Of a stretch of 64,000 nt of DNA, positions 2,435-54,732 are shown piece after piece; position 1 is the first letter of the stretch; each line of letters starts with the position of its first letter. The notes under the pieces were generated by a model. It was not told where the DNA came from. It did not search any database and worked only from the letters and a program-made list of their open reading frames with translations. Origin of the DNA: Escherichia phage UPWr_E2. A program made the translations under genes and the position numbers. The DNA is taken from the sequence record PP418986.1; one strand, written 5' to 3'.

Positions 2435-2791
2435 ATGTATAGTTCTGAATTTTCATATTTAAAAATGGAAAAAATTTCATACGATTTTATAGATGAAAAG
2501 GTTTATTACAGTTTCCATGAACCACGTTTTAATAGTGAGGTTGGGTTTATTGTAGTAAAAGACAATTTTATTTTAAAAATATATTCAGCATTAAAGGATT
2601 TTCATTACGAAAATATTAACCTAAAATTTAATAAAGAAAACGTTCGTAATTGTGCAGTAACAATTACAGGAAATAAAGGCACATGTGTTATGCTATCTGA
2701 TGAAATTAATGATTTGCTAAATGATGCCGAAAAGGTTGCTATTCCATCTATTGATGACCAAATTTTTAATGCTTTTATGAATAGAGGTTAA
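2435..2791 (+). CDS. hypothetical protein (61.2 position)
   Basis: 118-aa ORF in the 41-61 intergenic cluster. Confidence 0.45.
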   Translation: MYSSEFSYLKMEKISYDFIDEKVYYSFHEPRFNSEVGFIVVKDNFILKIYSALKDFHYENINLKFNKENVRNCAVTITGNKGTCVMLSDEINDLLNDAEKVAIPSIDDQIFNAFMNRG

Positions 2792-2792
2792 T

Positions 2793-2957
2793 ATGAAAAC
2801 ATATAAAGAATTTATTAAAGAAGATATGGTTGCTGGAGATTCAGGTGGTAATCCTGAAAATATCTCTACTGGAACAACATCAGGTGCTGTAGTAAATAAA
2901 GGTCCTGAACAGATTCCTAAAAAGAAAAAAGAGGAATCTAAAGAAAAAGAAGAGTAA
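2793..2957 (+). CDS. small acidic/lysine-rich protein (54 aa)
   Basis: ORF below 60 aa, not in the supplied track; ATG 2793, stop TAA 2955-2957; immediately upstream of gene 61. Confidence 0.4.
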   Translation: MKTYKEFIKEDMVAGDSGGNPENISTGTTSGAVVNKGPEQIPKKKKEESKEKEE

Positions 2958-2960
2958 AGA

Positions 2961-3989
2961 ATGTCATCAATAGCTTGGATTGATAATGAGTTTGCATATC
3001 GTGCATTAGCTCATTTACCTAAATTCACACAAGTAAATAATAGTTCAACTTTTAAATTACGGTTTAGATGCCCAGTTTGTGGAGATTCAAAAACCGACCA
3101 AAATAAAGCGCGTGGATGGTATTATGGTGATAATAATGAAGGAAATATTCATTGTTATAACTGTAACTATCATGCGCCAATCGGAATATATTTAAAGGAG
3201 TTTGAACCTGATTTATATCGTGAGTATATCTTTGAAATAAGAAAAGAAAAAGGTAAAAGTCGTCCAGTAGAAAAACCTAAAGAACTTCCTAAACATCCTG
3301 AGAAGAAAATAATTAAATCTCTTCCGTCATGTGTTAGATTAGATAAACTGGCGGAAGACCATCCAATTATAAAATATGTAAAAGCTCGTTGTATTCCAAA
3401 GGATAAATGGAAATATCTTTGGTTTACAACCGAATGGCCTAAATTAGTTAATAGCATAGCACCGGGAACATACAAAAAGGAAATTTCTGAGCCTCGTCTT
3501 GTTATTCCAATTTATAATGCTAATGGAAAAGCTGAGTCTTTTCAAGGACGTGCATTAAAGAAAGATGCTCCTCAAAAATATATCACCATCAAAGCTTATC
3601 CTGAGGCAACAAAAATATATGGAGTCGAACGAGTTAAAGATGGTGATGTATATGTTCTAGAAGGACCTATAGATTCACTTTTTATTGAAAATGGTATAGC
3701 TATTACGGGTGGTCAATTAGACCTAGAAGTTGTTCCATTTAAAGATAGACGAGTGTGGGTTTTAGATAATGAGCCTCGTCACCCTGACACTATCAAGCGA
3801 ATGACTAAATTAGTTGATGCAGGAGAAAGGGTTATGTTTTGGGATAAATCTCCCTGGAAATCAAAAGATGTTAATGATATGATTAGAAAGGAAGGTGCAA
3901 CCCCTGAACAAATTATGGAATATATGAAAAATAATATTGCCCAGGGGTTAATGGCTAAAATGCGGTTATCTAAATATGCCAAGATTTAA
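2961..3989 (+). CDS. 61: DNA primase gp61
   Basis: 342 aa; Cys-rich zinc-ribbon region (CPVCGDS...CYNCNYH); matches T4 gp61. Confidence 0.95.
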   Translation: MSSIAWIDNEFAYRALAHLPKFTQVNNSSTFKLRFRCPVCGDSKTDQNKARGWYYGDNNEGNIHCYNCNYHAPIGIYLKEFEPDLYREYIFEIRKEKGKSRPVEKPKELPKHPEKKIIKSLPSCVRLDKLAEDHPIIKYVKARCIPKDKWKYLWFTTEWPKLVNSIAPGTYKKEISEPRLVIPIYNANGKAESFQGRALKKDAPQKYITIKAYPEATKIYGVERVKDGDVYVLEGPIDSLFIENGIAITGGQLDLEVVPFKDRRVWVLDNEPRHPDTIKRMTKLVDAGERVMFWDKSPWKSKDVNDMIRKEGATPEQIMEYMKNNIAQGLMAKMRLSKYAKI

Positions 3990-5685: not shown

Positions 5686-6204
5686 ATGGCTTACTTTAAC
5701 GAATGTAGTCAACTGATCGAAGGCGCTGATAAAGCTCAAAATGAATATTGGGATATTCTCGGTGATGAAAAAGACCCGCTGCAGGTAATGCTTGACATGC
5801 AGAAATCTCTGCAGATTCGTTTAGCTAAAGATAAACCTGAATATAACCGTCATCCTGATGATTTGGCTACTGCAGGTGAAGTTGTTGATTGGCTGCGTAA
5901 TCAGAAAGATTATATTGATGATGAATTCCGCGAACTTCTGACTTCTCTTGGTGGTATGAGCAATGGTGAAAAAGATGCATCTGCTGTATGGAAGCCTTGG
6001 AAAGCTCAACATGGTGAACGACGTGAAACTCTGATTACTGATTTGTCTCCACAAGACCAGTTGGAAATTAAATTCGAAATGATTGATATTCTTCATTTCG
6101 TTCTGAACATGTTCCAAGGCCTCGGTCTTACGGCTGAAGAAATCTTTAAACTTTATTATCTGAAAAATGCTGAAAATTTCGCTCGTCAAGACCGAGGTTA
6201 TTAA
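5686..6204 (+). CDS. 56: dCTP pyrophosphatase gp56
   Basis: ORF starting MAYFNECSQLIEG; size and position match T4 gp56. Confidence 0.9.
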   Translation: MAYFNECSQLIEGADKAQNEYWDILGDEKDPLQVMLDMQKSLQIRLAKDKPEYNRHPDDLATAGEVVDWLRNQKDYIDDEFRELLTSLGGMSNGEKDASAVWKPWKAQHGERRETLITDLSPQDQLEIKFEMIDILHFVLNMFQGLGLTAEEIFKLYYLKNAENFARQDRGY

Positions 6205-6234
6205 CAGCTCGTCTTAAAAGCCGCGAGAATTTAT

Positions 6235-6242
6235 TATAAATA
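6235..6242 (+). promoter_or_regulatory. late promoter TATAAATA (soc)
   Basis: Exact TATAAATA about 30 nt upstream of soc start. Confidence 0.65.
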
Positions 6243-6272
6243 ATCATGTAATTTAAATAAAAGGAGAATTAC

Positions 6273-6518
6273 ATGGCTAGTACTCGCGGTTATGTTAATA
6301 TCAAAACATTTGAGCAGAAATTAGATGGAAATAAGAAAATTGAAGGAAAGGAAATTTCAGTAGCTTTCCCTCTTTATTCTGACGTTCACAAAATTTCTGG
6401 TGCTCATTACCAGATATTCCCTTCAGAAAAAGCAGCATATTCTACAGTATATGAAGAAAATCAACGTGCTGCATGGATTGCTGCAAATGAAGATTTGTGG
6501 AAAGTAACTGGTGAATAA
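6273..6518 (+). CDS. soc: small outer capsid protein Soc
   Basis: 80 aa beginning MASTRGYVNIKTFEQKLDG; matches T4 Soc. Confidence 0.9.
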   Translation: MASTRGYVNIKTFEQKLDGNKKIEGKEISVAFPLYSDVHKISGAHYQIFPSEKAAYSTVYEENQRAAWIAANEDLWKVTGE

Positions 6519-42815: not shown

Positions 42816-43448
42816 ATGAATATAGTATATTGGTTTACATTTGAAGACCGTGTCAAAAATAAGACTCCGCCATACTATTATATCGGTAGTAAATTAAATT
42901 GCTCATTTGAGAACGGAATAATATATGACTCTTCCGGAAAGGAATACTGGAGCTCATGTAAACAAAAAAGATTTTTGAATGCGCTAATGCTTCAAAAACC
43001 GAGCGTTAAAATAATTCAAATTGATGATGACTTGGATGTTATTGAAGCAGAACGAAAATACCAACTTGAAGTAAATGCCAGAGATAATCCAGACTATTTT
43101 AATCTGGTATATGCTGGTGGTGGATTTGGTGTGAGTGGTGAAACTCATCCAGCCAAAGACCCGGAAGTTAGAGAGCATATGAGATTGGCTAATTATATGA
43201 ACCGTGACGATTTTAGACCTTGGAAAACATCACGAGCTAATATAGAGTCTTGGAAATTATCTCATATTGCTTACGAGAATTATGTGTTATTATTATCCTC
43301 TAATCTGTACGGTAAAACTCCTGGATGGCGAAGAGTTAAAGGTAATATAAATATAACTGATACAACTGCTAAATCGATGGTAAAGTATTTCAACTCAGGT
43401 TGGATACCTCTCGAAGACCCAGAGTATTGCGAATTATGCCAGCTATGA
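42816..43448 (+). CDS. segG: GIY-YIG homing endonuclease (SegG-like)
   Basis: 210 aa; N-terminal GIY-YIG-like motif (IVYWFTF...YYYIGSK); between 59 and 32 as T4 segG. Confidence 0.6.
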   Translation: MNIVYWFTFEDRVKNKTPPYYYIGSKLNCSFENGIIYDSSGKEYWSSCKQKRFLNALMLQKPSVKIIQIDDDLDVIEAERKYQLEVNARDNPDYFNLVYAGGGFGVSGETHPAKDPEVREHMRLANYMNRDDFRPWKTSRANIESWKLSHIAYENYVLLLSSNLYGKTPGWRRVKGNINITDTTAKSMVKYFNSGWIPLEDPEYCELCQL

Positions 43449-45608: not shown

Positions 45609-46637
<1,029 letters not shown>

Positions 46638-46638
<1 letters not shown>

Positions 46639-47186
46639 TGAAACAATACCAATTTTTAATTAAAGATATCCTGGAAAATGGCTACGAAACCGATGACCGA
46701 ACAGGCACAGGAACAATTGCTTTGTTCGGTACTAAATTACGCTGGGATTTAACTAAAGGTTTTCCTGCAGTAACAACTAAGAAGCTCGCCTGGAAAGCTT
46801 GCATTGCTGAGCTGCTTTGGTTTTTATCGGGAAGCACAAATGTCAATGATTTGCGATTAATTCAACATGATTCGTTAATCCAAGGCAAAACAGTTTGGGA
46901 TGAAAATTACGAAAATCAAGCAAAAGATTTAGGATACCATAGCGGTGAACTTGGTCCAATTTATGGAAAACAGTGGCGTGATTTTGGTGGCGTAGACCAA
47001 ATTATAGAAGTTATTGATCGTATTAAAAAATTGCCAAATGATAGGCGTCAAATTGTTTCAGCATGGAATCCAGCTGAACTCAAGCAGATGGCATTACCGC
47101 CTTGTCATATGTTCTATCAGTTTAATGTGCGTAATGGCTATTTGGATTTGCAGTGGTATCAACGATCAGTAGATGTTTTCTTGGGT
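46638..47186 (+). CDS. td: thymidylate synthase, exon 1
   Basis: Starts MKQYQFLIKDILENGYETDDRTGTGT; ends ...VFLG at the conserved CTTGGGT 5' splice site. Confidence 0.9.
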
Positions 47187-47506
47187 TAATTGAGGCCTGA
47201 GTATAAGGTGACTTATACTTGTAATCTATCTAAACGGGGAACCTCTCTAGTAGACAATCCCGTGCTAAATTGTAGGACTACCCTTTAATAATTTCATCAG
47301 GATTAGTTACTTATCGTGTAAAATCTGATAAATGGAATTGGTTCTACATAAATGCCTAACGACTATCCCTTTGGGGAGTAGGGTCAAGTGACTCGAAACG
47401 ATAGACAACTTGCTTTAACAAGTTGGAGATATAGTCTGATCTGCATGGTGACATGCAGCTGGATATAATTCCGGGGTAAGATTAACGACCTTATCTGAAC
47501 ATAATG
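47187..47506 (+). other. group I self-splicing intron in td, without homing-endonuclease ORF
   Basis: Starts TAATTGAGGCCTGAG, ends ...ACATAATG; joining exons restores a 286-aa TS frame; holds only the last ~19 codons of an I-TevI-like ORF. Confidence 0.85.
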
Positions 47507-47818
47507 CTTCCATTTAATATTGCATCATATGCTACGTTAGTTCATATTGTAGCTAAGATGTGTAATCTTATTCCGGGAGATTTGATATTTTCCGGTGGTA
47601 ATACTCATATCTATATGAATCACGTAGAACAATGTAAAGAAATTTTGCGTCGTGAACCTAAAGAGCTTTGTGAACTGGTAATAGGCGGATTGCCTTATAA
47701 ATTCCGCTATCTTTCTACTAAAGAACAATTGGAATACATTCTTAAACTCAGGCCTAAAGATTTCGTTCTCAAAGATTATCAGTCCCACGGCGTCTTGAAA
47801 GGAAAAATGGCGGTGTAA
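47507..47818 (+). CDS. td: thymidylate synthase, exon 2
   Basis: Continues LPFNIASYATLVHIVA... in frame with exon 1. Confidence 0.9.
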   Translation, partial: LPFNIASYATLVHIVAKMCNLIPGDLIFSGGNTHIYMNHVEQCKEILRREPKELCELVIGGLPYKFRYLSTKEQLEYILKLRPKDFVLKDYQSHGVLKGKMAV

Positions 47819-47841
47819 TTTTAATTTAATTGTGAGGATTT

Positions 47842-48105
47842 ATGATTTTACGATTTAAAGATACTTCTGGTGTAGTTCTTTTTACACTTCCTAACCCAAG
47901 TGAGTTAGAAGTTCCAGGACCAAATCAGCCTATTATCATTTATGGCAAAAAATATTATACTCATAAAATGACTCGTGAGTATTTTGATAATAAAATTTCC
48001 ACAGTTAAAACTTCTTCTGACTGTTACTACGATATTACTGTTTTAACGGAAAAACAATATGCCGAATTATCACCGCGCGGGCCGTCTATGTCGGGTAGTG
48101 AATAA
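47842..48105 (+). CDS. hypothetical protein
   Basis: 87-aa ORF with GAGGA SD. Confidence 0.45.
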
Positions 48106-48385
48106 ATACAAATCCGACTTTGATGTTAATATTCACCGTGGTACATTTTGGGGAAATTACGTCGGTAAAGATGCTGGCAGCCGGGAGGCTGCCATTGAAT
48201 TATTCAAAAAAGATTTTATACGTCGAATTAAATCCGGAGAAATAACTAAAGCACATTTAGAGCCTTTACGTGGAATGAGGCTAGGATGCACATGTAAACC
48301 AAAGCCGTGTCATGGTGATATAATAGCTCATATAGTTAACCGACTGTTTAAAGACGATTTTCAAGTTGAGGACTTATGCAATTAA
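48059..48385 (+). CDS. hypothetical protein
   Basis: 108-aa ORF overlapping upstream ORF; start uncertain. Confidence 0.35.
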
Positions 48386-50640
48386 TTAATGTTATCAAAA
48401 GTAGTGGTGTTTCTCAGAGCTTTGACCCGCAAAAAATTATTAAAGTTTTATCTTGGGCATCTGAGGGAACATCAGTAGATCCTTATGAATTATATGAAAA
48501 TATTAAATCATATCTCCGTGATGGAATGACAACTGATGACATTCAGACTATTGTCATTAAGGCTGCTGCGAATTCTATTTCGGTTGAAGAGCCTGATTAT
48601 CAATATGTAGCTGCACGCTGTTTAATGTTCGCTCTTCGTAAGCATGTTTATGGGCAGTATGAACCACGTTCATTTATTGACCATATTTCTTACTGTGTAA
48701 ATGAAGGTAAATATGACCCTGAATTATTGTCAAAATATTCAGCAGAAGAAATTACATTTTTAGAATCAAAAATTAAGCACGAGCGGGATATGGAATTTAC
48801 TTATTCCGGGGCGATGCAATTAAAAGAAAAATATCTAGTTAAAGATAAAACCACTGGTCAAATTTATGAAACTCCGCAGTTTGCATTTATGACTATTGGA
48901 ATGGCATTGCATCAAGATGAACCTGTTGATAGATTAAAACATGTTATTCGTTTTTATGAAGCAGTATCTACTCGACAGATTTCATTACCAACTCCTATTA
49001 TGGCTGGTTGCCGTACTCCAACTCGGCAGTTTAGTTCATGCGTTGTTATTGAGGCAGGCGATTCACTGAAGTCTATCAATAAGGCTTCTGCTTCAATTGT
49101 TGAATATATCTCTAAACGCGCTGGAATTGGTATTAACGTTGGTATGATTCGTGCTGAAGGTTCTAAGATTGGCATGGGTGAAGTGCGTCATACTGGTGTT
49201 ATTCCTTTTTGGAAACATTTTCAGACTGCTGTTAAATCATGCTCACAGGGTGGAATTCGTGGCGGCGCTGCTACTGCTTATTATCCTATTTGGCATTTGG
49301 AAGTTGAAAATCTTCTCGTTTTGAAAAATAACAAAGGCGTAGAAGAAAACCGCATTCGTCATATGGATTATGGTGTTCAGCTGAATGATTTGATGATGGA
49401 ACGATTCGGAAAGAACGATTACATTACTTTGTTCAGTCCGCATGAAATGGGTGGCGAGCTTTATTATTCTTATTTTAAAGACCAAAACCGTTTCCGTGAA
49501 TTATACGAAGCAGCAGAAAAAGACCCTAATATTCGTAAAAAGCGTATTAAAGCCCGTGAACTATTTGAATTGCTCATGACTGAACGTTCAGGAACCGCAA
49601 GGATTTATGTGCAGTTCATTGATAATACGAATAACTATACTCCGTTTATTCGTGAAAAGGCGCCTATTCGTCAGAGTAACTTGTGTTGTGAAATTGCTAT
49701 TCCAACAAATGATGTGAATAGTCCTGATGCTGAAATTGGATTGTGTACTCTCTCTGCATTCGTACTAGATAATTTTGACTGGCAAGACCAAGATAAAATT
49801 AATGAATTGGCAGAAGTTCAAGTTCGTGCTCTTGATAATCTGTTGGATTACCAAGGATATCCAGTTCCTGAAGCAGAAAAAGCTAAAAAGCGTCGTAACC
49901 TCGGTGTAGGTGTTACCAACTATGCAGCTTGGCTGGCAAGTAACTTTGCTTCTTATGAAGATGCTAATGATTTAACACATGAACTATTTGAGAGATTACA
50001 GTATGGACTCATTAAAGCATCCATTAAGCTCGCCAAAGAAAAAGGACCTTGCGAATATTATTCAGACACTCGTTGGTCTCGAGGCGAATTACCTATCGAC
50101 TGGTACAATAAAAAGATTGACCAAATCGCAGCTCCAAAATACGTTTGTGACTGGTCGGCGCTGCGGGAAGACCTTAAGCTCTTTGGCATCCGTAATAGCA
50201 CATTATCAGCACTTATGCCATGTGAGTCATCTTCCCAAGTTTCTAACAGTACAAACGGTATCGAGCCTCCACGTGGACCAGTCTCTGTTAAAGAATCAAA
50301 AGAGGGTTCCTTTAATCAAGTCGTGCCCAATATTGAACATAACATAGACCTATATGATTATACATGGAAATTAGCTAAGAAAGGTAATAAACCTTATCTT
50401 ACGCAGGTAGCTATTATGCTGAAATGGGTATGTCAATCAGCTTCAGCGAATACATATTATGACCCGCAGATTTTTCCAAAAGGAAAGGTTCCAATGTCAA
50501 TAATGATTGATGACATGCTATACGGATGGTATTATGGCATTAAAAACTTCTATTATCATAATACTCGTGATGGTTCCGGTACTGATGATTATGAAATAGA
50601 AACTCCAAAAGCCGATGATTGCGCAGCGTGTAAATTGTAA
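48376..50640 (+). CDS. nrdA: ribonucleotide reductase large subunit NrdA
   Basis: 754 aa; class Ia RNR alpha features; matches T4 NrdA. Confidence 0.95.
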   Translation: MQLINVIKSSGVSQSFDPQKIIKVLSWASEGTSVDPYELYENIKSYLRDGMTTDDIQTIVIKAAANSISVEEPDYQYVAARCLMFALRKHVYGQYEPRSFIDHISYCVNEGKYDPELLSKYSAEEITFLESKIKHERDMEFTYSGAMQLKEKYLVKDKTTGQIYETPQFAFMTIGMALHQDEPVDRLKHVIRFYEAVSTRQISLPTPIMAGCRTPTRQFSSCVVIEAGDSLKSINKASASIVEYISKRAGIGINVGMIRAEGSKIGMGEVRHTGVIPFWKHFQTAVKSCSQGGIRGGAATAYYPIWHLEVENLLVLKNNKGVEENRIRHMDYGVQLNDLMMERFGKNDYITLFSPHEMGGELYYSYFKDQNRFRELYEAAEKDPNIRKKRIKARELFELLMTERSGTARIYVQFIDNTNNYTPFIREKAPIRQSNLCCEIAIPTNDVNSPDAEIGLCTLSAFVLDNFDWQDQDKINELAEVQVRALDNLLDYQGYPVPEAEKAKKRRNLGVGVTNYAAWLASNFASYEDANDLTHELFERLQYGLIKASIKLAKEKGPCEYYSDTRWSRGELPIDWYNKKIDQIAAPKYVCDWSALREDLKLFGIRNSTLSALMPCESSSQVSNSTNGIEPPRGPVSVKESKEGSFNQVVPNIEHNIDLYDYTWKLAKKGNKPYLTQVAIMLKWVCQSASANTYYDPQIFPKGKVPMSIMIDDMLYGWYYGIKNFYYHNTRDGSGTDDYEIETPKADDCAACKL

Positions 50641-51371
50641 TGAATTATCAAAAAATCTATAACGACCTAATTTCCCGAGCTCAGGCTCGGGAATCTTTAC
50701 TAGAATATAAAGAGACACATCATATAATCCCTAAATGTATGGGAGGTTCTGATGATAAGGAAAATTTAGTTGAATTAACAGCCAGAGAACATTTTATAGC
50801 TCATCTATTACTATGTAAGATAAATGAAGGCCATTTTGGTCTTGCCTCTGCGTTAACGTTGATGGCAACAGATAAAGCTGGCAATAGAATTAATAACAGA
50901 TTGTACAGCTTACACAGAAAATTATTTGCTAAAGCTAATTCTGAGTTCTTTAAGAAATATTGGAAAAATAATCCTCATCCTAAAGGGATGCTAGGCAAGC
51001 ATCATAAAAACGAAACTAAACAGCATGTATCTAACGTGAATAGATATGCGTGCCCATCTGTAGAAATACATAAATTCTCATTAGATGGGGATTTCATAGA
51101 AACCTTTCACTCTATTGCGGCAGCGTCCCGGTCAGTTAATGGAAACGGGTCAAATATCAAATATTGTGCCGAGGGTAAATTTCAATATGCTTATGGATTT
51201 AGATGGTCATATCAACTTGATGCAAAGTTTGACAAAATAAAACCAAGAGATTATAAAGGAATCCGCGGTAAGAAATGGATTAATAATGGAAGTGAATGCA
51301 CGCTTATAGGTAAAGATGATATTATACCGCCAGGTTGGAAACGCGGCAGAATTTTAAAGAGGAAAAATTAA
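50640..51371 (+). CDS. mobE: HNH homing endonuclease (MobE-like)
   Basis: 243 aa; HNH motif HHIIPKCMGGSDDKENLVELTAREHFIAH; between nrdA and nrdB. Confidence 0.7.
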   Translation: MNYQKIYNDLISRAQARESLLEYKETHHIIPKCMGGSDDKENLVELTAREHFIAHLLLCKINEGHFGLASALTLMATDKAGNRINNRLYSLHRKLFAKANSEFFKKYWKNNPHPKGMLGKHHKNETKQHVSNVNRYACPSVEIHKFSLDGDFIETFHSIAAASRSVNGNGSNIKYCAEGKFQYAYGFRWSYQLDAKFDKIKPRDYKGIRGKKWINNGSECTLIGKDDIIPPGWKRGRILKRKN

Positions 51372-52549
51372 TGTCTACAGTTTTTAATACAAATCCAGTT
51401 GATGTTTTAAAAGAACCTATGTTTTTTGGTTCAGGTCTTGGTATTGCGCGTTATGATATTCAACGTCATAAAGTTTTTGAAGATTTAACCGAAAAGCAGT
51501 TGTCATTTTTCTGGCGTCCTGAAGAAGTAAACTTAATGATGGATGCTGCACAGTTTAATAAGCTTCCTCAGTACCAGCAAAATATTTTTACTAACAACCT
51601 GAAGTATCAATCACTTTTAGATAGCATTCAGGGTCGTGCGCCGTCTGCTGTACTTATGTCATTAATTTCAGACCCAAGTCTTGATACATGGGTTGCTACA
51701 TGGACTTTTAGTGAAACTATTCACAGTCGTTCATATACTCATATCATGCGAAATCTTTATACTGATCCATCGAAGGTATTTGATGAGATTGTATTAGATG
51801 AAGCTATTATGAAACGTGCTGAATCCATTGGACGTTATTATGATGATGTTCTGATTAAAACTCGTTATTGGGAAAACGCTAAAGCTGATATCGAATACCA
51901 AAAAGAAATTAATGCAGACGAAGACGTTATTGAAGATGCTATTGAGCATGAGACATATTGGAAGCGTGAGCTAATGAAATCTCTTTACCTCTGTTTGCAT
52001 GTAATCAACGCATTGGAAGCTATTCGTTTTTATGTATCTTTTGCATGTACCTTTAACTTCCATAAGAACATGGAAATCATGGAAGGTAATGCCAAGATTA
52101 TGAAGTTCATTGCACGCGATGAACAGCTTCACCTTAAAGGCACCCAATATATTATTCGTCAACTTCAACTTGGCACTGACGGCGATGAATGGGTTAAAAT
52201 TGCTCAAGAGTGCGAGCAAGAAGCAGTTGATATTTTCATGGAAGTTAACCGCCAAGAAAAAGATTGGGCAGTTCATTTATTTAAAGATGGCGATGTTCCT
52301 GGATTAAATACAAATAGCATGTGGAGCTTTATTGATTACTTAACTGTATCTCGTATGAAACAGTGTGGTCTTCCATGCCCGATTACCGATGCTCCGGTTA
52401 AACATCCATATCCTTGGATTCGTGAATACCTTAATTCTGATAATGTTCAATCCGCGCCGCAAGAAGTAGAACTGTCATCTTATCTTGTTGCACAGATTGA
52501 TAATGATGTTGATGATAAAGTTATGATGAGTTTTAAAAAATACTTTTAA
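51371..52549 (+). CDS. nrdB: ribonucleotide reductase small subunit NrdB (intronless)
   Basis: 392 aa from MSTVFNTNPVDVLKEPMFF; single continuous ORF. Confidence 0.95.
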   Translation: MSTVFNTNPVDVLKEPMFFGSGLGIARYDIQRHKVFEDLTEKQLSFFWRPEEVNLMMDAAQFNKLPQYQQNIFTNNLKYQSLLDSIQGRAPSAVLMSLISDPSLDTWVATWTFSETIHSRSYTHIMRNLYTDPSKVFDEIVLDEAIMKRAESIGRYYDDVLIKTRYWENAKADIEYQKEINADEDVIEDAIEHETYWKRELMKSLYLCLHVINALEAIRFYVSFACTFNFHKNMEIMEGNAKIMKFIARDEQLHLKGTQYIIRQLQLGTDGDEWVKIAQECEQEAVDIFMEVNRQEKDWAVHLFKDGDVPGLNTNSMWSFIDYLTVSRMKQCGLPCPITDAPVKHPYPWIREYLNSDNVQSAPQEVELSSYLVAQIDNDVDDKVMMSFKKYF

Positions 52550-52554
52550 GGAGT

Positions 52555-52576
52555 GGGCCGCAAGGCCCATTTTATT
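52555..52576 (+). terminator. rho-independent terminator
   Basis: GGGCC GCAA GGCCC hairpin followed by ATTTTATT. Confidence 0.65.
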
Positions 52577-54164
<1,588 letters not shown>

Positions 54165-54167
54165 GCT

Positions 54168-54198
54168 GTTTACAAGTCCCTCGTGTTGTGTTATAGTA
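54168..54198 (+). promoter_or_regulatory. T4-type early promoter
   Basis: GTTTAC at 54168, TATAGT at 54193. Confidence 0.6.
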
Positions 54199-54225
54199 GT
54201 CTTACTGACATAACATGAGGACTTT

Positions 54226-54732
54226 ATGATGGATTTGCAGCTTATTACTACTGAAATGGTCGTTGAAGCATACGGTGATACTACAGATGGGATTTCTGTA
54301 TTTAAAGGAAATCGTCGAGTTGGATATATCACCGATCTTAAGAAAGATTTAGCTAAGCAAGTCAAGCGGAAAACGACCATTAAAGAATATCGAAATCGTC
54401 GTCTTGAGCAAGCCCGTGATATGCTTCCTGATGCGGTTGAGGAGATGAAAGTCTTTTTAGAAAATCAGCTTGCGAAATATGATTGCGATGTGTTCATTAA
54501 TCAGACTCAACCTAATGTTCATATTAACAACTGTAAATGCTATATCATCGTTAATCCTTTAACGGGAAAACATCGTCTTGGAATTAGTAATCCAAATCGT
54601 AGCGCATCGGATATGGCAGAAGATGTTGAGGCATGCTTTAAAATTTCTAAATCTCCGGCTGAACATCATATTTTAATTAACGGTCTTTCTCAAGACGATA
54701 TTATAGAGGTTATTAAAACTTTATGCAATTAA
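54226..54732 (+). CDS. alc: Alc (host transcription termination on C-containing DNA)
   Basis: 168 aa beginning MMDLQLITTEMVVEAYGDTTDG; between rnlA and pseT. Confidence 0.8.
   Translation: MMDLQLITTEMVVEAYGDTTDGISVFKGNRRVGYITDLKKDLAKQVKRKTTIKEYRNRRLEQARDMLPDAVEEMKVFLENQLAKYDCDVFINQTQPNVHINNCKCYIIVNPLTGKHRLGISNPNRSASDMAEDVEACFKISKSPAEHHILINGLSQDDIIEVIKTLCN

What the first reader, a model, noticed from the sequence alone, without database searches (positions are those of the whole stretch)
50640..51371. Free-standing HNH endonuclease between nrdA and an intronless nrdB
A 243-aa ORF with HNH motif HHIIPKCMGGSDDKENLVELTAREHFIAH lies between nrdA and nrdB, overlapping the nrdA stop. nrdB here is one continuous 392-codon ORF. 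The window thus holds homing elements at different life-cycle stages: an intact HNH gene without an intron here, and an intron without its endonuclease in td.
Basis: partly seen in the sequence, partly recalled or inferred. Interest (0 to 1): 0.4.

Follow-up and report, generated by a model that had tools for sequence, protein, structure and literature searches.

The report
RB3-type mobE homing endonuclease gene
The 243-codon gene between nrdA and nrdB is the already named mobE homing-endonuclease gene of T4-like phages, in the version first deposited for phage RB3, so the finding is correct but ordinary.

Summary
ORF 50640-51371 (243 aa) carries an HNH motif. It overlaps the nrdA stop and the nrdB start by one base each, and nrdB is an intronless 392-codon ORF. 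The td gene holds a 320-nt group I intron without I-TevI.

The window is 100% identical to Yersinia phage PYps55T (Tequatrovirus), where the gene is annotated 'homing endonuclease'. It is 97-98% identical to the gene deposited as mobE of phage RB3. It sits at the locus of T4 mobE, a free-standing HNH homing endonuclease gene. T4 MobE-dependent nicking of T2 nrdB and its super-Mendelian inheritance were shown in 2009.

One detail goes beyond the annotation. This allele shares only its first ~57 codons (HNH core plus an internal terminator hairpin) with T4/T6 mobE. Its C-terminal module is unrelated: NUMOD1 here, NUMOD3 plus a zinc-finger-like end in T6.

This phage's nrdB is identical to T2's across the mapped T4-MobE nick site. 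I therefore infer that the RB3-type enzyme has a different target, probably at the nrdA-end/spacer junction. That remains an inference.

dN/dS of 0.08-0.12 and invariant catalytic residues argue for a working protein.

Verdict: already known, low interest.

The parts
48376..50640 (+). nrdA (RNR large subunit, 754 aa). Upstream flank and transcription/translation donor for the endonuclease gene. Its last 25 nt carry the six substitutions that separate all mobE carriers from empty-site Tequatrovirus phages.
   Evidence: (ATP-cone, Ribonuc_red_lgN/lgC)
50640..51371 (+). RB3-type mobE: free-standing HNH homing-endonuclease gene, 243 aa. TAATG overlaps with nrdA on one side and nrdB on the other.
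50640..50809 (+). 5' segment (gene nt 1-170, codons 1-57) shared at about 96% DNA identity with T4/T6 mobE. It encodes the HNH catalytic core.
50672..50693 (+). Intrinsic-terminator-like hairpin inside the ORF: 9-bp stem, 4-nt loop, then UCUUUACU. The stem is identical to the experimentally mapped T4 mobE internal terminator.
   Evidence: PMC2790892
50718..50804 (+). HNH motif, residues 27-55. H27, H28, N42, E50, H51 and H55 are invariant in 56 homologues.
50810..51357 (+). Allele-specific cassette (codons ~58-240) with no DNA or protein similarity to T4/T6 mobE. It is the presumed DNA-binding region.
51078..51170 (+). NUMOD1 helix-turn-helix-like DNA-binding motif, residues 147-177.
51298..51325 (+). 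Candidate MotA-type middle promoter for nrdB inside the 3' end of the ORF (GCACGCTTAT-12 nt-TATTAT). It is conserved in RB3 and found only with a loosened pattern.
   Evidence: inference only
51358..51370 (+). Retained nrdB ribosome-binding stretch (AGAGGAAAAATTA), homologous to the last 13 nt of the empty-site spacer. It marks the right edge of the insertion.
51371..52549 (+). Intronless nrdB (392 aa).
51492..51496 (-). Positions equivalent to the T4-MobE nick site (nrdB nt 122-126, non-coding strand). The sequence here is identical to the sensitive T2 sequence.
47187..47506 (+). ORF-less td group I intron (320 nt). It is mentioned in the finding's reasoning but is not part of the mobE element.

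Best explanation
This is the RB3-type allele of mobE, a free-standing Mob-family HNH homing-endonuclease gene lodged between nrdA and nrdB of a Tequatrovirus (PYps55T).

Shown here or in the literature for the T4 allele: the gene has no promoter of its own and is read from nrdA transcripts. Its AUG overlaps the nrdA stop (UAAUGA), which suggests translational coupling. A hairpin terminator about 30 nt into the ORF attenuates it.

Inferred for this allele: in a mixed infection with a relative that has the empty 54-nt nrdA-nrdB spacer, the enzyme nicks or cuts the rival genome near that junction. Phage recombination-dependent repair then copies mobE and its flanking nrd sequence into the rival.

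The protein is modular. Residues 1-57 form the HNH core and are shared with T4/T6 MobE. The remaining residues form a different DNA-binding module (NUMOD1 plus a C-terminal beta element). Its target is therefore inferred to differ from the T4-MobE site in nrdB (nt 122-126). The likeliest location is the nrdA 3' end/spacer, which the insertion itself replaces.
For: Identity. The window is 100% identical to PYps55T, where the gene is annotated 'homing endonuclease'. The C-terminal 184 residues are 97.8% identical to RB3 'mobE: MobE' of the same length and position. PHROG 655 matches at E=3e-57.

Locus and mobility signature. The position is the same as T4/T6 mobE. About 383 phage records have an empty 54-56-nt junction, including T2 and the sibling phage PYps15T.

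Selection. dN/dS is 0.08-0.12 between alleles, including across genera.

Regulation. The terminator hairpin is at 50672-50693. A hairpin at the same ORF position is kept with a different sequence in other genera.

Different module and target. DNA homology to T4/T6 stops at gene nt ~170-188. Pfam finds NUMOD1 here and NUMOD3 x2 in T6. This phage's nrdB nt 7-179 is identical to T2's, whereas T4 differs from T2 at 31 positions in nt 39-141.

Mechanism for the T4 allele. MobE-dependent nicking, HNH-dependent super-Mendelian inheritance and the internal terminator are documented in PMC2790892.
Against: There is no activity or inheritance data for the RB3-type allele. Even T4 MobE has never been shown to be active in vitro.

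Pfam HNH is just under its cut-off, and Foldseek E=9e-3 is weak.

The proposed target is only an inference. The six fixed nrdA-end substitutions are shared with T4-type carriers and could simply be hitch-hiking flanks. The sample is also small: six carriers and five empty sites.

The candidate nrdB promoter needed a loosened MotA-box pattern.
Confidence: 0.85

Rival explanations
1. It has the same specificity as T4 MobE. The RB3-type enzyme nicks nrdB at nt 122-126, directed by the shared HNH domain, and the carrier genome is protected in some other way.
For: The first 57 residues are 91-95% identical to T4/T6 MobE. Wilson & Edgell grouped RB3 with the mobE-containing phages and proposed that the HNH domain reads the polymorphic nt 114-131.
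Against: This phage's nrdB nt 7-179 equals the sensitive T2 sequence, so it would nick itself. The presumed DNA-binding modules are unrelated. Carriers are polymorphic at that site, T2-like in some and T6-like in others.
Confidence: 0.08
2. It is a resident, no longer mobile gene. The ORF is kept because it now carries nrdB expression signals (terminator, promoter, RBS) or serves another role. It does not drive homing.
For: The insertion replaced the spacer that holds a TATAAT in empty-site phages. A candidate nrdB promoter and the RBS lie inside the ORF. Wilson & Edgell argue that such signals select against deletion. One homologue (STML-198) is truncated to 146 aa.
Against: dN/dS of about 0.1 applies over the whole protein and the catalytic residues are invariant. 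Selection therefore acts on the protein and not only on the embedded DNA signals. The presence/absence pattern among near-identical phages fits ongoing gain and loss.
Confidence: 0.1
3. It is mainly a competition weapon against the other mobE allele or against unrelated targets, rather than a homing element for empty sites.
For: Two allele types plus Hef occupy one locus. RB3-type carriers with T6-like patches at the T4-MobE site exist, namely IME537 and Aplg8.
Against: No target in T4-type genomes can be pointed to. T4-type carriers share the same nrdA end as RB3-type carriers.
Confidence: 0.05

Closest known systems
MobE of phage RB3 (GenBank AY262130.2 / NC_025419; also RB5, RB7, RB10)
   Same: Same locus, same length (243 aa) and same overlaps with nrdA and nrdB. 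The C-terminal 184 residues are 97.8% identical.
   Different: RB3 has an intron with I-TevIII in nrdB, whereas this phage's nrdB is intronless. There are a few substitutions in the N-terminal part.
MobE of phages T4 and T6 (Wilson & Edgell 2009, PMC2790892)
   Same: Same insertion site, the same UAAUGA overlap, an identical internal terminator stem, and the first ~57 codons at about 96% DNA identity.
   Different: From codon ~58 onward the sequences are unrelated. T6 has two NUMOD3 motifs and a zinc-finger-like end in 213 aa, while this protein has NUMOD1 in 243 aa. T4/T6 nrdB is diverged around the nick site and this phage's is not.
T4 MobB (between alpha-gt and the gene 55 region)
   Same: Same PHROG 655. 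It is 40% identical over residues 1-191 and also has NUMOD1-like repeats after the HNH domain.
   Different: It lies at a different locus and has a duplicated C-terminal repeat. Its target is unknown.
I-HmuI (PDB 1U3E), intron-encoded HNH nicking endonuclease of Bacillus phage SPO1
   Different: I-HmuI is intron-encoded. Identity over the aligned residues is only 12-15%.
Hef of phage U5 (544 aa)
   Same: It occupies the same nrdA-nrdB site in other T-even phages.
   Different: It has no sequence similarity to this gene. A tblastn search with Hef finds nothing in the window.

Membership tests
Mob-family free-standing HNH homing endonuclease at the mobE locus | Separate ORF in the nrdA-nrdB intergenic space, in the same orientation, not inside an intron or intein | tested here: met
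   (no intron hit near it)
Mob-family free-standing HNH homing endonuclease at the mobE locus | N-terminal HNH motif with conserved catalytic residues | tested here: met
   Residues 27-55. H27, H28, N42, H51 and H55 are invariant in 56 homologues. The first 57 residues are 91-95% identical to T4/T6 MobE.
Mob-family free-standing HNH homing endonuclease at the mobE locus | Homology to a protein named MobE | tested here: met
   RB3 MobE at 97.8%. Homology to T4/T6 MobE covers the first ~100 residues only, at 62-65%.
Mob-family free-standing HNH homing endonuclease at the mobE locus | Presence/absence polymorphism among close relatives (empty sites exist) | tested here: met
   About 383 records have a 54-56-nt spacer, including T2 and PYps15T
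Mob-family free-standing HNH homing endonuclease at the mobE locus | Promoterless gene, UAAUGA overlap with nrdA, internal intrinsic terminator | tested here: met
   Sequence; hairpin. The sigma-70 scan is not above its shuffles, and no MotA or late promoter pattern lies upstream of the ATG. Transcription itself was not measured.
Mob-family free-standing HNH homing endonuclease at the mobE locus | Site-specific nicking or cleavage of endonuclease-lacking genomes, and super-Mendelian inheritance | not testable with these tools
   Shown only for the T4 allele (PMC2790892)
HNH (beta-beta-alpha-metal) nuclease superfamily | Match to the Pfam HNH profile above its curated cut-off | tested here: inconclusive
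   19.7 bits against a cut-off of 21.4, E=9e-4. T6 MobE passes at 24.4 bits.
HNH (beta-beta-alpha-metal) nuclease superfamily | Beta-beta-alpha fold around the motif, resembling solved HNH enzymes | tested here: met
T4/T6-type MobE (same specificity allele) | Homologous C-terminal DNA-binding module | tested here: not met
   No DNA or protein similarity after codon ~58-63, and the Pfam modules differ
T4/T6-type MobE (same specificity allele) | Carrier's own nrdB diverged at the nick site (nt ~100-135) | tested here: not met
   Zero mismatches to T2 in nt 7-179
Hef | Sequence similarity to U5 Hef | tested here: not met
Intron-encoded HNH endonuclease (I-TevIII / I-HmuI type) | ORF embedded in a group I intron | tested here: not met
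   The only Rfam hit in the window is the td intron. nrdB is colinear with T2.
Group I intron (td intron of T-even phages), ORF-less form | Rfam Intron_gpI above its gathering score, correct splice junctions restoring Td, and no I-TevI ORF | tested here: met
   66.9 bits against a cut-off of 50. The spliced product is 286 aa and identical to T4 Td at 272 of 286 residues. T4 intron nt ~107-795 are absent.

The most novel reading that the evidence does not exclude
RB3-type and T4/T6-type mobE may be two specificity alleles made by swapping the DNA-binding module just after the HNH core (codon ~57), and they compete for one insertion site. On this reading the RB3-type enzyme cuts at the nrdA-end/spacer junction that its own insertion destroys. 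RB3-type carriers such as this phage keep the T2-like nrdB sequence, so they would be nicked and overwritten by T4-type mobE in mixed infections. The short T6-like nrdB patch in IME537, and the longer T6-like tract in Aplg8, would then be traces of that conflict: resistance acquired by gene conversion.
Probability: 0.35. Interest if true: 0.45.

Novelty: already known. Interest (0 to 1): 0.18.

Why it matters
As stated, the finding adds nothing new. mobE between nrdA and nrdB is a textbook free-standing homing endonuclease of T-even phages, and this allele was deposited under that name for RB3 about twenty years ago.

The modest added value is comparative. About 75 phage records carry this type or a 60-80%-identical relative. 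About 80 carry the T4/T6 type and about 380 have neither. The two types differ in their whole presumed DNA-binding half.

The published nick-site logic was worked out for T4 and pooled RB3 with the 'mobE-containing' phages. It probably does not apply to this allele. If confirmed, the locus would be a compact natural system for studying how homing endonucleases change specificity by module exchange, and how alleles compete for one site.

Tried and rejected
- **Single-sequence AlphaFold model:** pLDDT 35, unusable. It was replaced by a model built with a 56-sequence alignment.
- **Sequence search of the PDB:** nothing significant. The best hit was the HNH part of a group II intron maturase at E=0.09.
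- **Sandegren, Nord & Sjöberg 2005 (SegH and Hef):** this paper surveyed mobE among T-even phages but is not held in the library. I could not check what it says about RB3 mobE.
- **IMG/VR scan with NrdB:** it returned only 34 loci, few of them Tequatrovirus. The carrier-versus-empty comparison therefore rests on six carriers and five empty sites, which is too few for statistics.
- **Strict MotA-box pattern:** it finds the known T4/T6 promoter but nothing in this allele. Only a loosened pattern gives a candidate.
- **Rejected: Hef.** No similarity.
- **Rejected: orthologue of T4 MobE in the sense of shared specificity.**
- **Rejected: intron-encoded endonuclease.**
- **Considered and dropped:** nrdB codon 2 (TCT against AGC) as an immunity change. 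Aplg8 carries the RB3-type gene together with AGC.
Full report
**1. The observation**

Listing ORFs over 46000-54500 gives an ATG-initiated ORF at 50640-51371 on the + strand, 243 aa. The raw sequence shows ...AAATTGTAATGAATTAT... at 50632-50648. The ATG therefore shares its A with the nrdA stop codon TAA. At the other end, AAAATTAATGTCT shows the gene's TAA sharing its last A with the nrdB ATG at 51371.

The quoted HNH motif is residues 27-55. The upstream ORF (48376-50640, 754 aa) matches Pfam ATP-cone, Ribonuc_red_lgN and Ribonuc_red_lgC. The downstream ORF, read from 51371, is 392 aa and matches Ribonuc_red_sm in a single stretch.

nrdB is colinear with the intronless nrdB of phage T2 (392 aa, 382 identical). 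Relative to T4, the intron is simply absent between nrdB nt 674 and 677.

**2. Where the window comes from and what the gene is called**

Window 50000-52000 is 100% identical to Yersinia phage PYps55T (MT515756.1, Tequatrovirus). In that record the ORF is PYps55T_064, 'homing endonuclease'.

A tblastn search with residues 60-243 finds 54 phage records at 95% identity or more. Among them are the RB3 nrd fragment AY262130.2 and the genomes of RB3, RB5, RB7 and RB10, where the gene is annotated 'mobE: MobE / putative homing endonuclease'. In AY262130.2 the gene is 732 nt long and overlaps nrdA and nrdB exactly as it does here.

The same position is occupied by mobE in T6 (213 aa). In T4 it is annotated as mobE of 141 aa plus nrdB.1.

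**3. What is known about mobE**

Wilson & Edgell 2009 (PMC2790892) reported the following for T4 mobE:

- It has no promoter and is co-transcribed with nrdA.
- A hairpin 27 nt after the AUG acts as a weak intrinsic terminator.
- A middle promoter for nrdB lies in the 3' part of the gene.
- The gene is inherited at about twice its input in T4 x T2 crosses.
- Deleting residues 33-62 reduces that inheritance.
- The defunct nrdB intron with I-TevIII is mobilised in trans.

The Edgell review (PMC2988022) adds the UAAUGA overlap as probable translational coupling. It also notes that all Mob proteins combine a conserved N-terminal HNH domain with a protein-specific C-terminal region.

**4. Anatomy of this allele**

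*Nuclease core.* Pfam HNH matches residues 22-44 at 19.7 bits, just under the 21.4-bit cut-off. NUMOD1 matches residues 147-177 above its cut-off. PHROG 655 'homing endonuclease' matches at E=3e-57.

A database search found 811 homologues at E<=1e-10, of which 23 are full-length relatives at 46-99% identity. In an alignment of 56 of them, M1, Y7, E25, H27, H28, P31, G36, N42, E50, H51, H55 and L57 are invariant.

*Regulatory features.* A hairpin with a 9-bp stem and 4-nt loop, followed by UCUUUACU, lies at 50672-50693. It folds at -16.8 kcal/mol with z=-4.2. Its stem is identical to that of the T4 terminator.

Homologues in other genera have a hairpin at the same place in the ORF. In vB_EcoM_RZ it differs partly in sequence. 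In CF1 and an S16-like phage it differs completely (GGAGAGGC-GAAAA-GCCUCUCC, then UUUC). So the structure is conserved even where the sequence is not.

A strict MotA-box search recovers the T4/T6 nrdB middle promoter (GCGTGCTTAA-12-TACAAT) but nothing in this allele. A looser pattern gives GCACGCTTAT-12-TATTAT at 51298-51325, which is also present in RB3. I treat that only as a candidate.

The last 13 nt before the nrdB ATG are homologous to the end of the empty-site spacer. They contain the RBS and mark the right edge of the insertion.

*Selection.* Nei-Gojobori dN/dS is 0.08 against RB3 (dS 0.17). It is 0.09-0.12 against the RZ and CF1 homologues. The protein as a whole is under purifying selection. 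One homologue, in STML-198, is truncated at 146 aa.

**5. The allele is a mosaic relative to T4/T6 mobE**

Protein identity to T4/T6 MobE is confined to the first ~100 residues (62-65%). The first 57 residues are 91% identical, and 95% between RB3 and T4.

At the DNA level, homology to T4 runs from nrdA through gene nt 170 at 96%, and to T6 through nt 188. It then disappears until the last two bases before nrdB.

Pfam describes the two C-terminal halves differently. T6 MobE has two NUMOD3 motifs and weak zinc-finger hits. This protein has NUMOD1 and a weak I-HmuI_NUMOD-like hit. Its C-terminal half is in fact closer to T4 MobB (30-40% identity).

Full-length relatives of the RB3 type sit at the same nrdA|nrdB position in other genera. 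These are Gaprivervirus RZ (73.5%), Citrobacter phage CF1 (~65%) and S16-like Salmonella phages (~61%).

Rough census in the phage collection:

| Occupant of the nrdA-nrdB site | Records |
|---|---|
| RB3 type | 54 at >=95% identity, plus 21 at 60-80% |
| T6/T4 type | 39 at >=95% identity, plus 43 at 60-80% |
| Empty junction | about 383 |

Hef (544 aa, unrelated) is a third occupant of the site.

**6. Where does this enzyme cut? (inference)**

I compared carriers with empty-site Tequatrovirus phages: T2, PYps15T and three IMG/VR contigs.

T4 differs from T2 at 31 positions within nrdB nt 39-141. This is an island around the mapped nick site with near-identity on either side. This phage has no difference from T2 between nt 7 and 179. 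It therefore carries the sequence that T4 MobE nicks. An enzyme with that specificity would attack its own genome.

Other RB3-type carriers vary at this site. RB3, an IMG/VR contig and EC121 are T2-like. IME537 has a T6-like patch confined to about nt 96-131. Aplg8 has the whole T6-like nt 1-150.

The only positions at which all six carriers differ from all five empty sites are six substitutions in the last 25 nt of nrdA, one at -120, and the replaced spacer. The nrdB codon-2 change (TCT against AGC) is not fixed, because Aplg8 has AGC.

From this I infer that the RB3-type target is not the T4-MobE site. It most probably lies at the nrdA-end/spacer junction, which the insertion itself disrupts.

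Several cautions apply:

- The nrdA-end substitutions are shared with T4-type carriers and may simply be co-converted flanks.
- The carriers' nrdA tail resembles that of empty-site phages of another genus. The Tequatrovirus empty sites could therefore equally be resistant variants.
- The sample is small.

**7. The td intron**

Rfam's only hit in the 64-kb window is Intron_gpI at 47177-47458 (66.9 bits). Alignment with T4 td places exon 1 at 46638-47186, the intron at 47187-47506 (320 nt) and exon 2 at 47507-47818.

Splicing yields a 286-aa Td that is identical to T4's at 272 of 286 residues. The intron lacks T4 intron nt ~107-795. That is nearly all of the I-TevI ORF, which spans nt 133-870.

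The same short intron occurs in other phages, for example Shinka at 100% identity. Many relatives have the full intron with I-TevI, and others, such as T2, have none. The GenBank record annotates two separate 'thymidylate synthase' CDSs and no intron.

**8. Verdict**

The finding is accurate and its interpretation is right, but it describes a named and previously deposited gene of a well-studied family. Novelty: already known.

What my analysis adds is unproven. The RB3-type allele differs from the characterised T4 allele in its entire presumed DNA-binding half. Its carriers keep the T4-MobE-sensitive nrdB sequence. Its specificity is therefore probably different. Interest is low (0.18). The allele-competition reading would deserve moderate interest if crosses confirmed it.

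Noticed in passing
window 47187-47506: The td gene is split by a 320-nt ORF-less group I intron (the T4 intron minus nt ~107-795, i.e. minus I-TevI). GenBank MT515756.1 annotates two separate thymidylate synthase CDSs and no intron. The same short intron occurs in phages Shinka and Elenatom.
   Followed up: yes
window 42816-43448 (+): A second free-standing 'homing endonuclease' gene (211 codons, PYps55T_076) lies between gene 32 (ssDNA-binding protein) and gene 59 (helicase loader). From memory, this is the position of segG in T4. It has no Pfam hit at E<=1.
   Followed up: partly
window 46432-46638 (+): A 68-aa ORF lies between frd and td, where in T4 those two genes overlap directly. It has no Pfam hit but is present in about 237 phage records as a 'hypothetical protein'.
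   Followed up: partly
window 48059-48385 (+): A 108-aa ORF with a strong DUF4326 match (E=5.5e-22) lies at the T4 nrdA.1 position. It is not annotated in the PYps55T GenBank record, which has a gap at 47601-47870 in record coordinates.
   Followed up: no
L046 (IME537) nrdB nt ~96-131; L045 (Aplg8) nrdB nt 1-150: These are RB3-type mobE carriers whose nrdB carries T6-like sequence exactly around the T4-MobE nick site. In IME537 it is a short patch flanked by T2-like sequence. In Aplg8 it is a longer tract, and the endonuclease ORF there is 248 aa and runs 17 nt into nrdB.
   Followed up: partly
L012 (Salmonella phage STML-198) 2275-2715: The RB3-type homologue at the nrdA-nrdB site is truncated to 146 aa, which looks like a decaying copy. 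The S16-like relative L013 is intact at 242 aa.
   Followed up: no
L014, L018-L020, L024, L025, L030, L032, L033 (upstream of nrdB, locus ~2500-3000): In other T4-like genera the nrdA-nrdB gap is 235-510 nt and holds one or two small ORFs (54-127 aa) with no similarity to mobE or Hef. L028 and L037 hold Hef (65% and 99% identical to U5 Hef).
   Followed up: partly
L004 (T4 NC_000866) 5717-6417: The T4 reference annotates mobE as 141 aa followed by a separate nrdB.1 (83 aa). T6 has one 213-aa ORF whose C-terminal part is nearly identical to T4 nrdB.1. T4 mobE therefore appears split, or differently read, in its middle.
   Followed up: no
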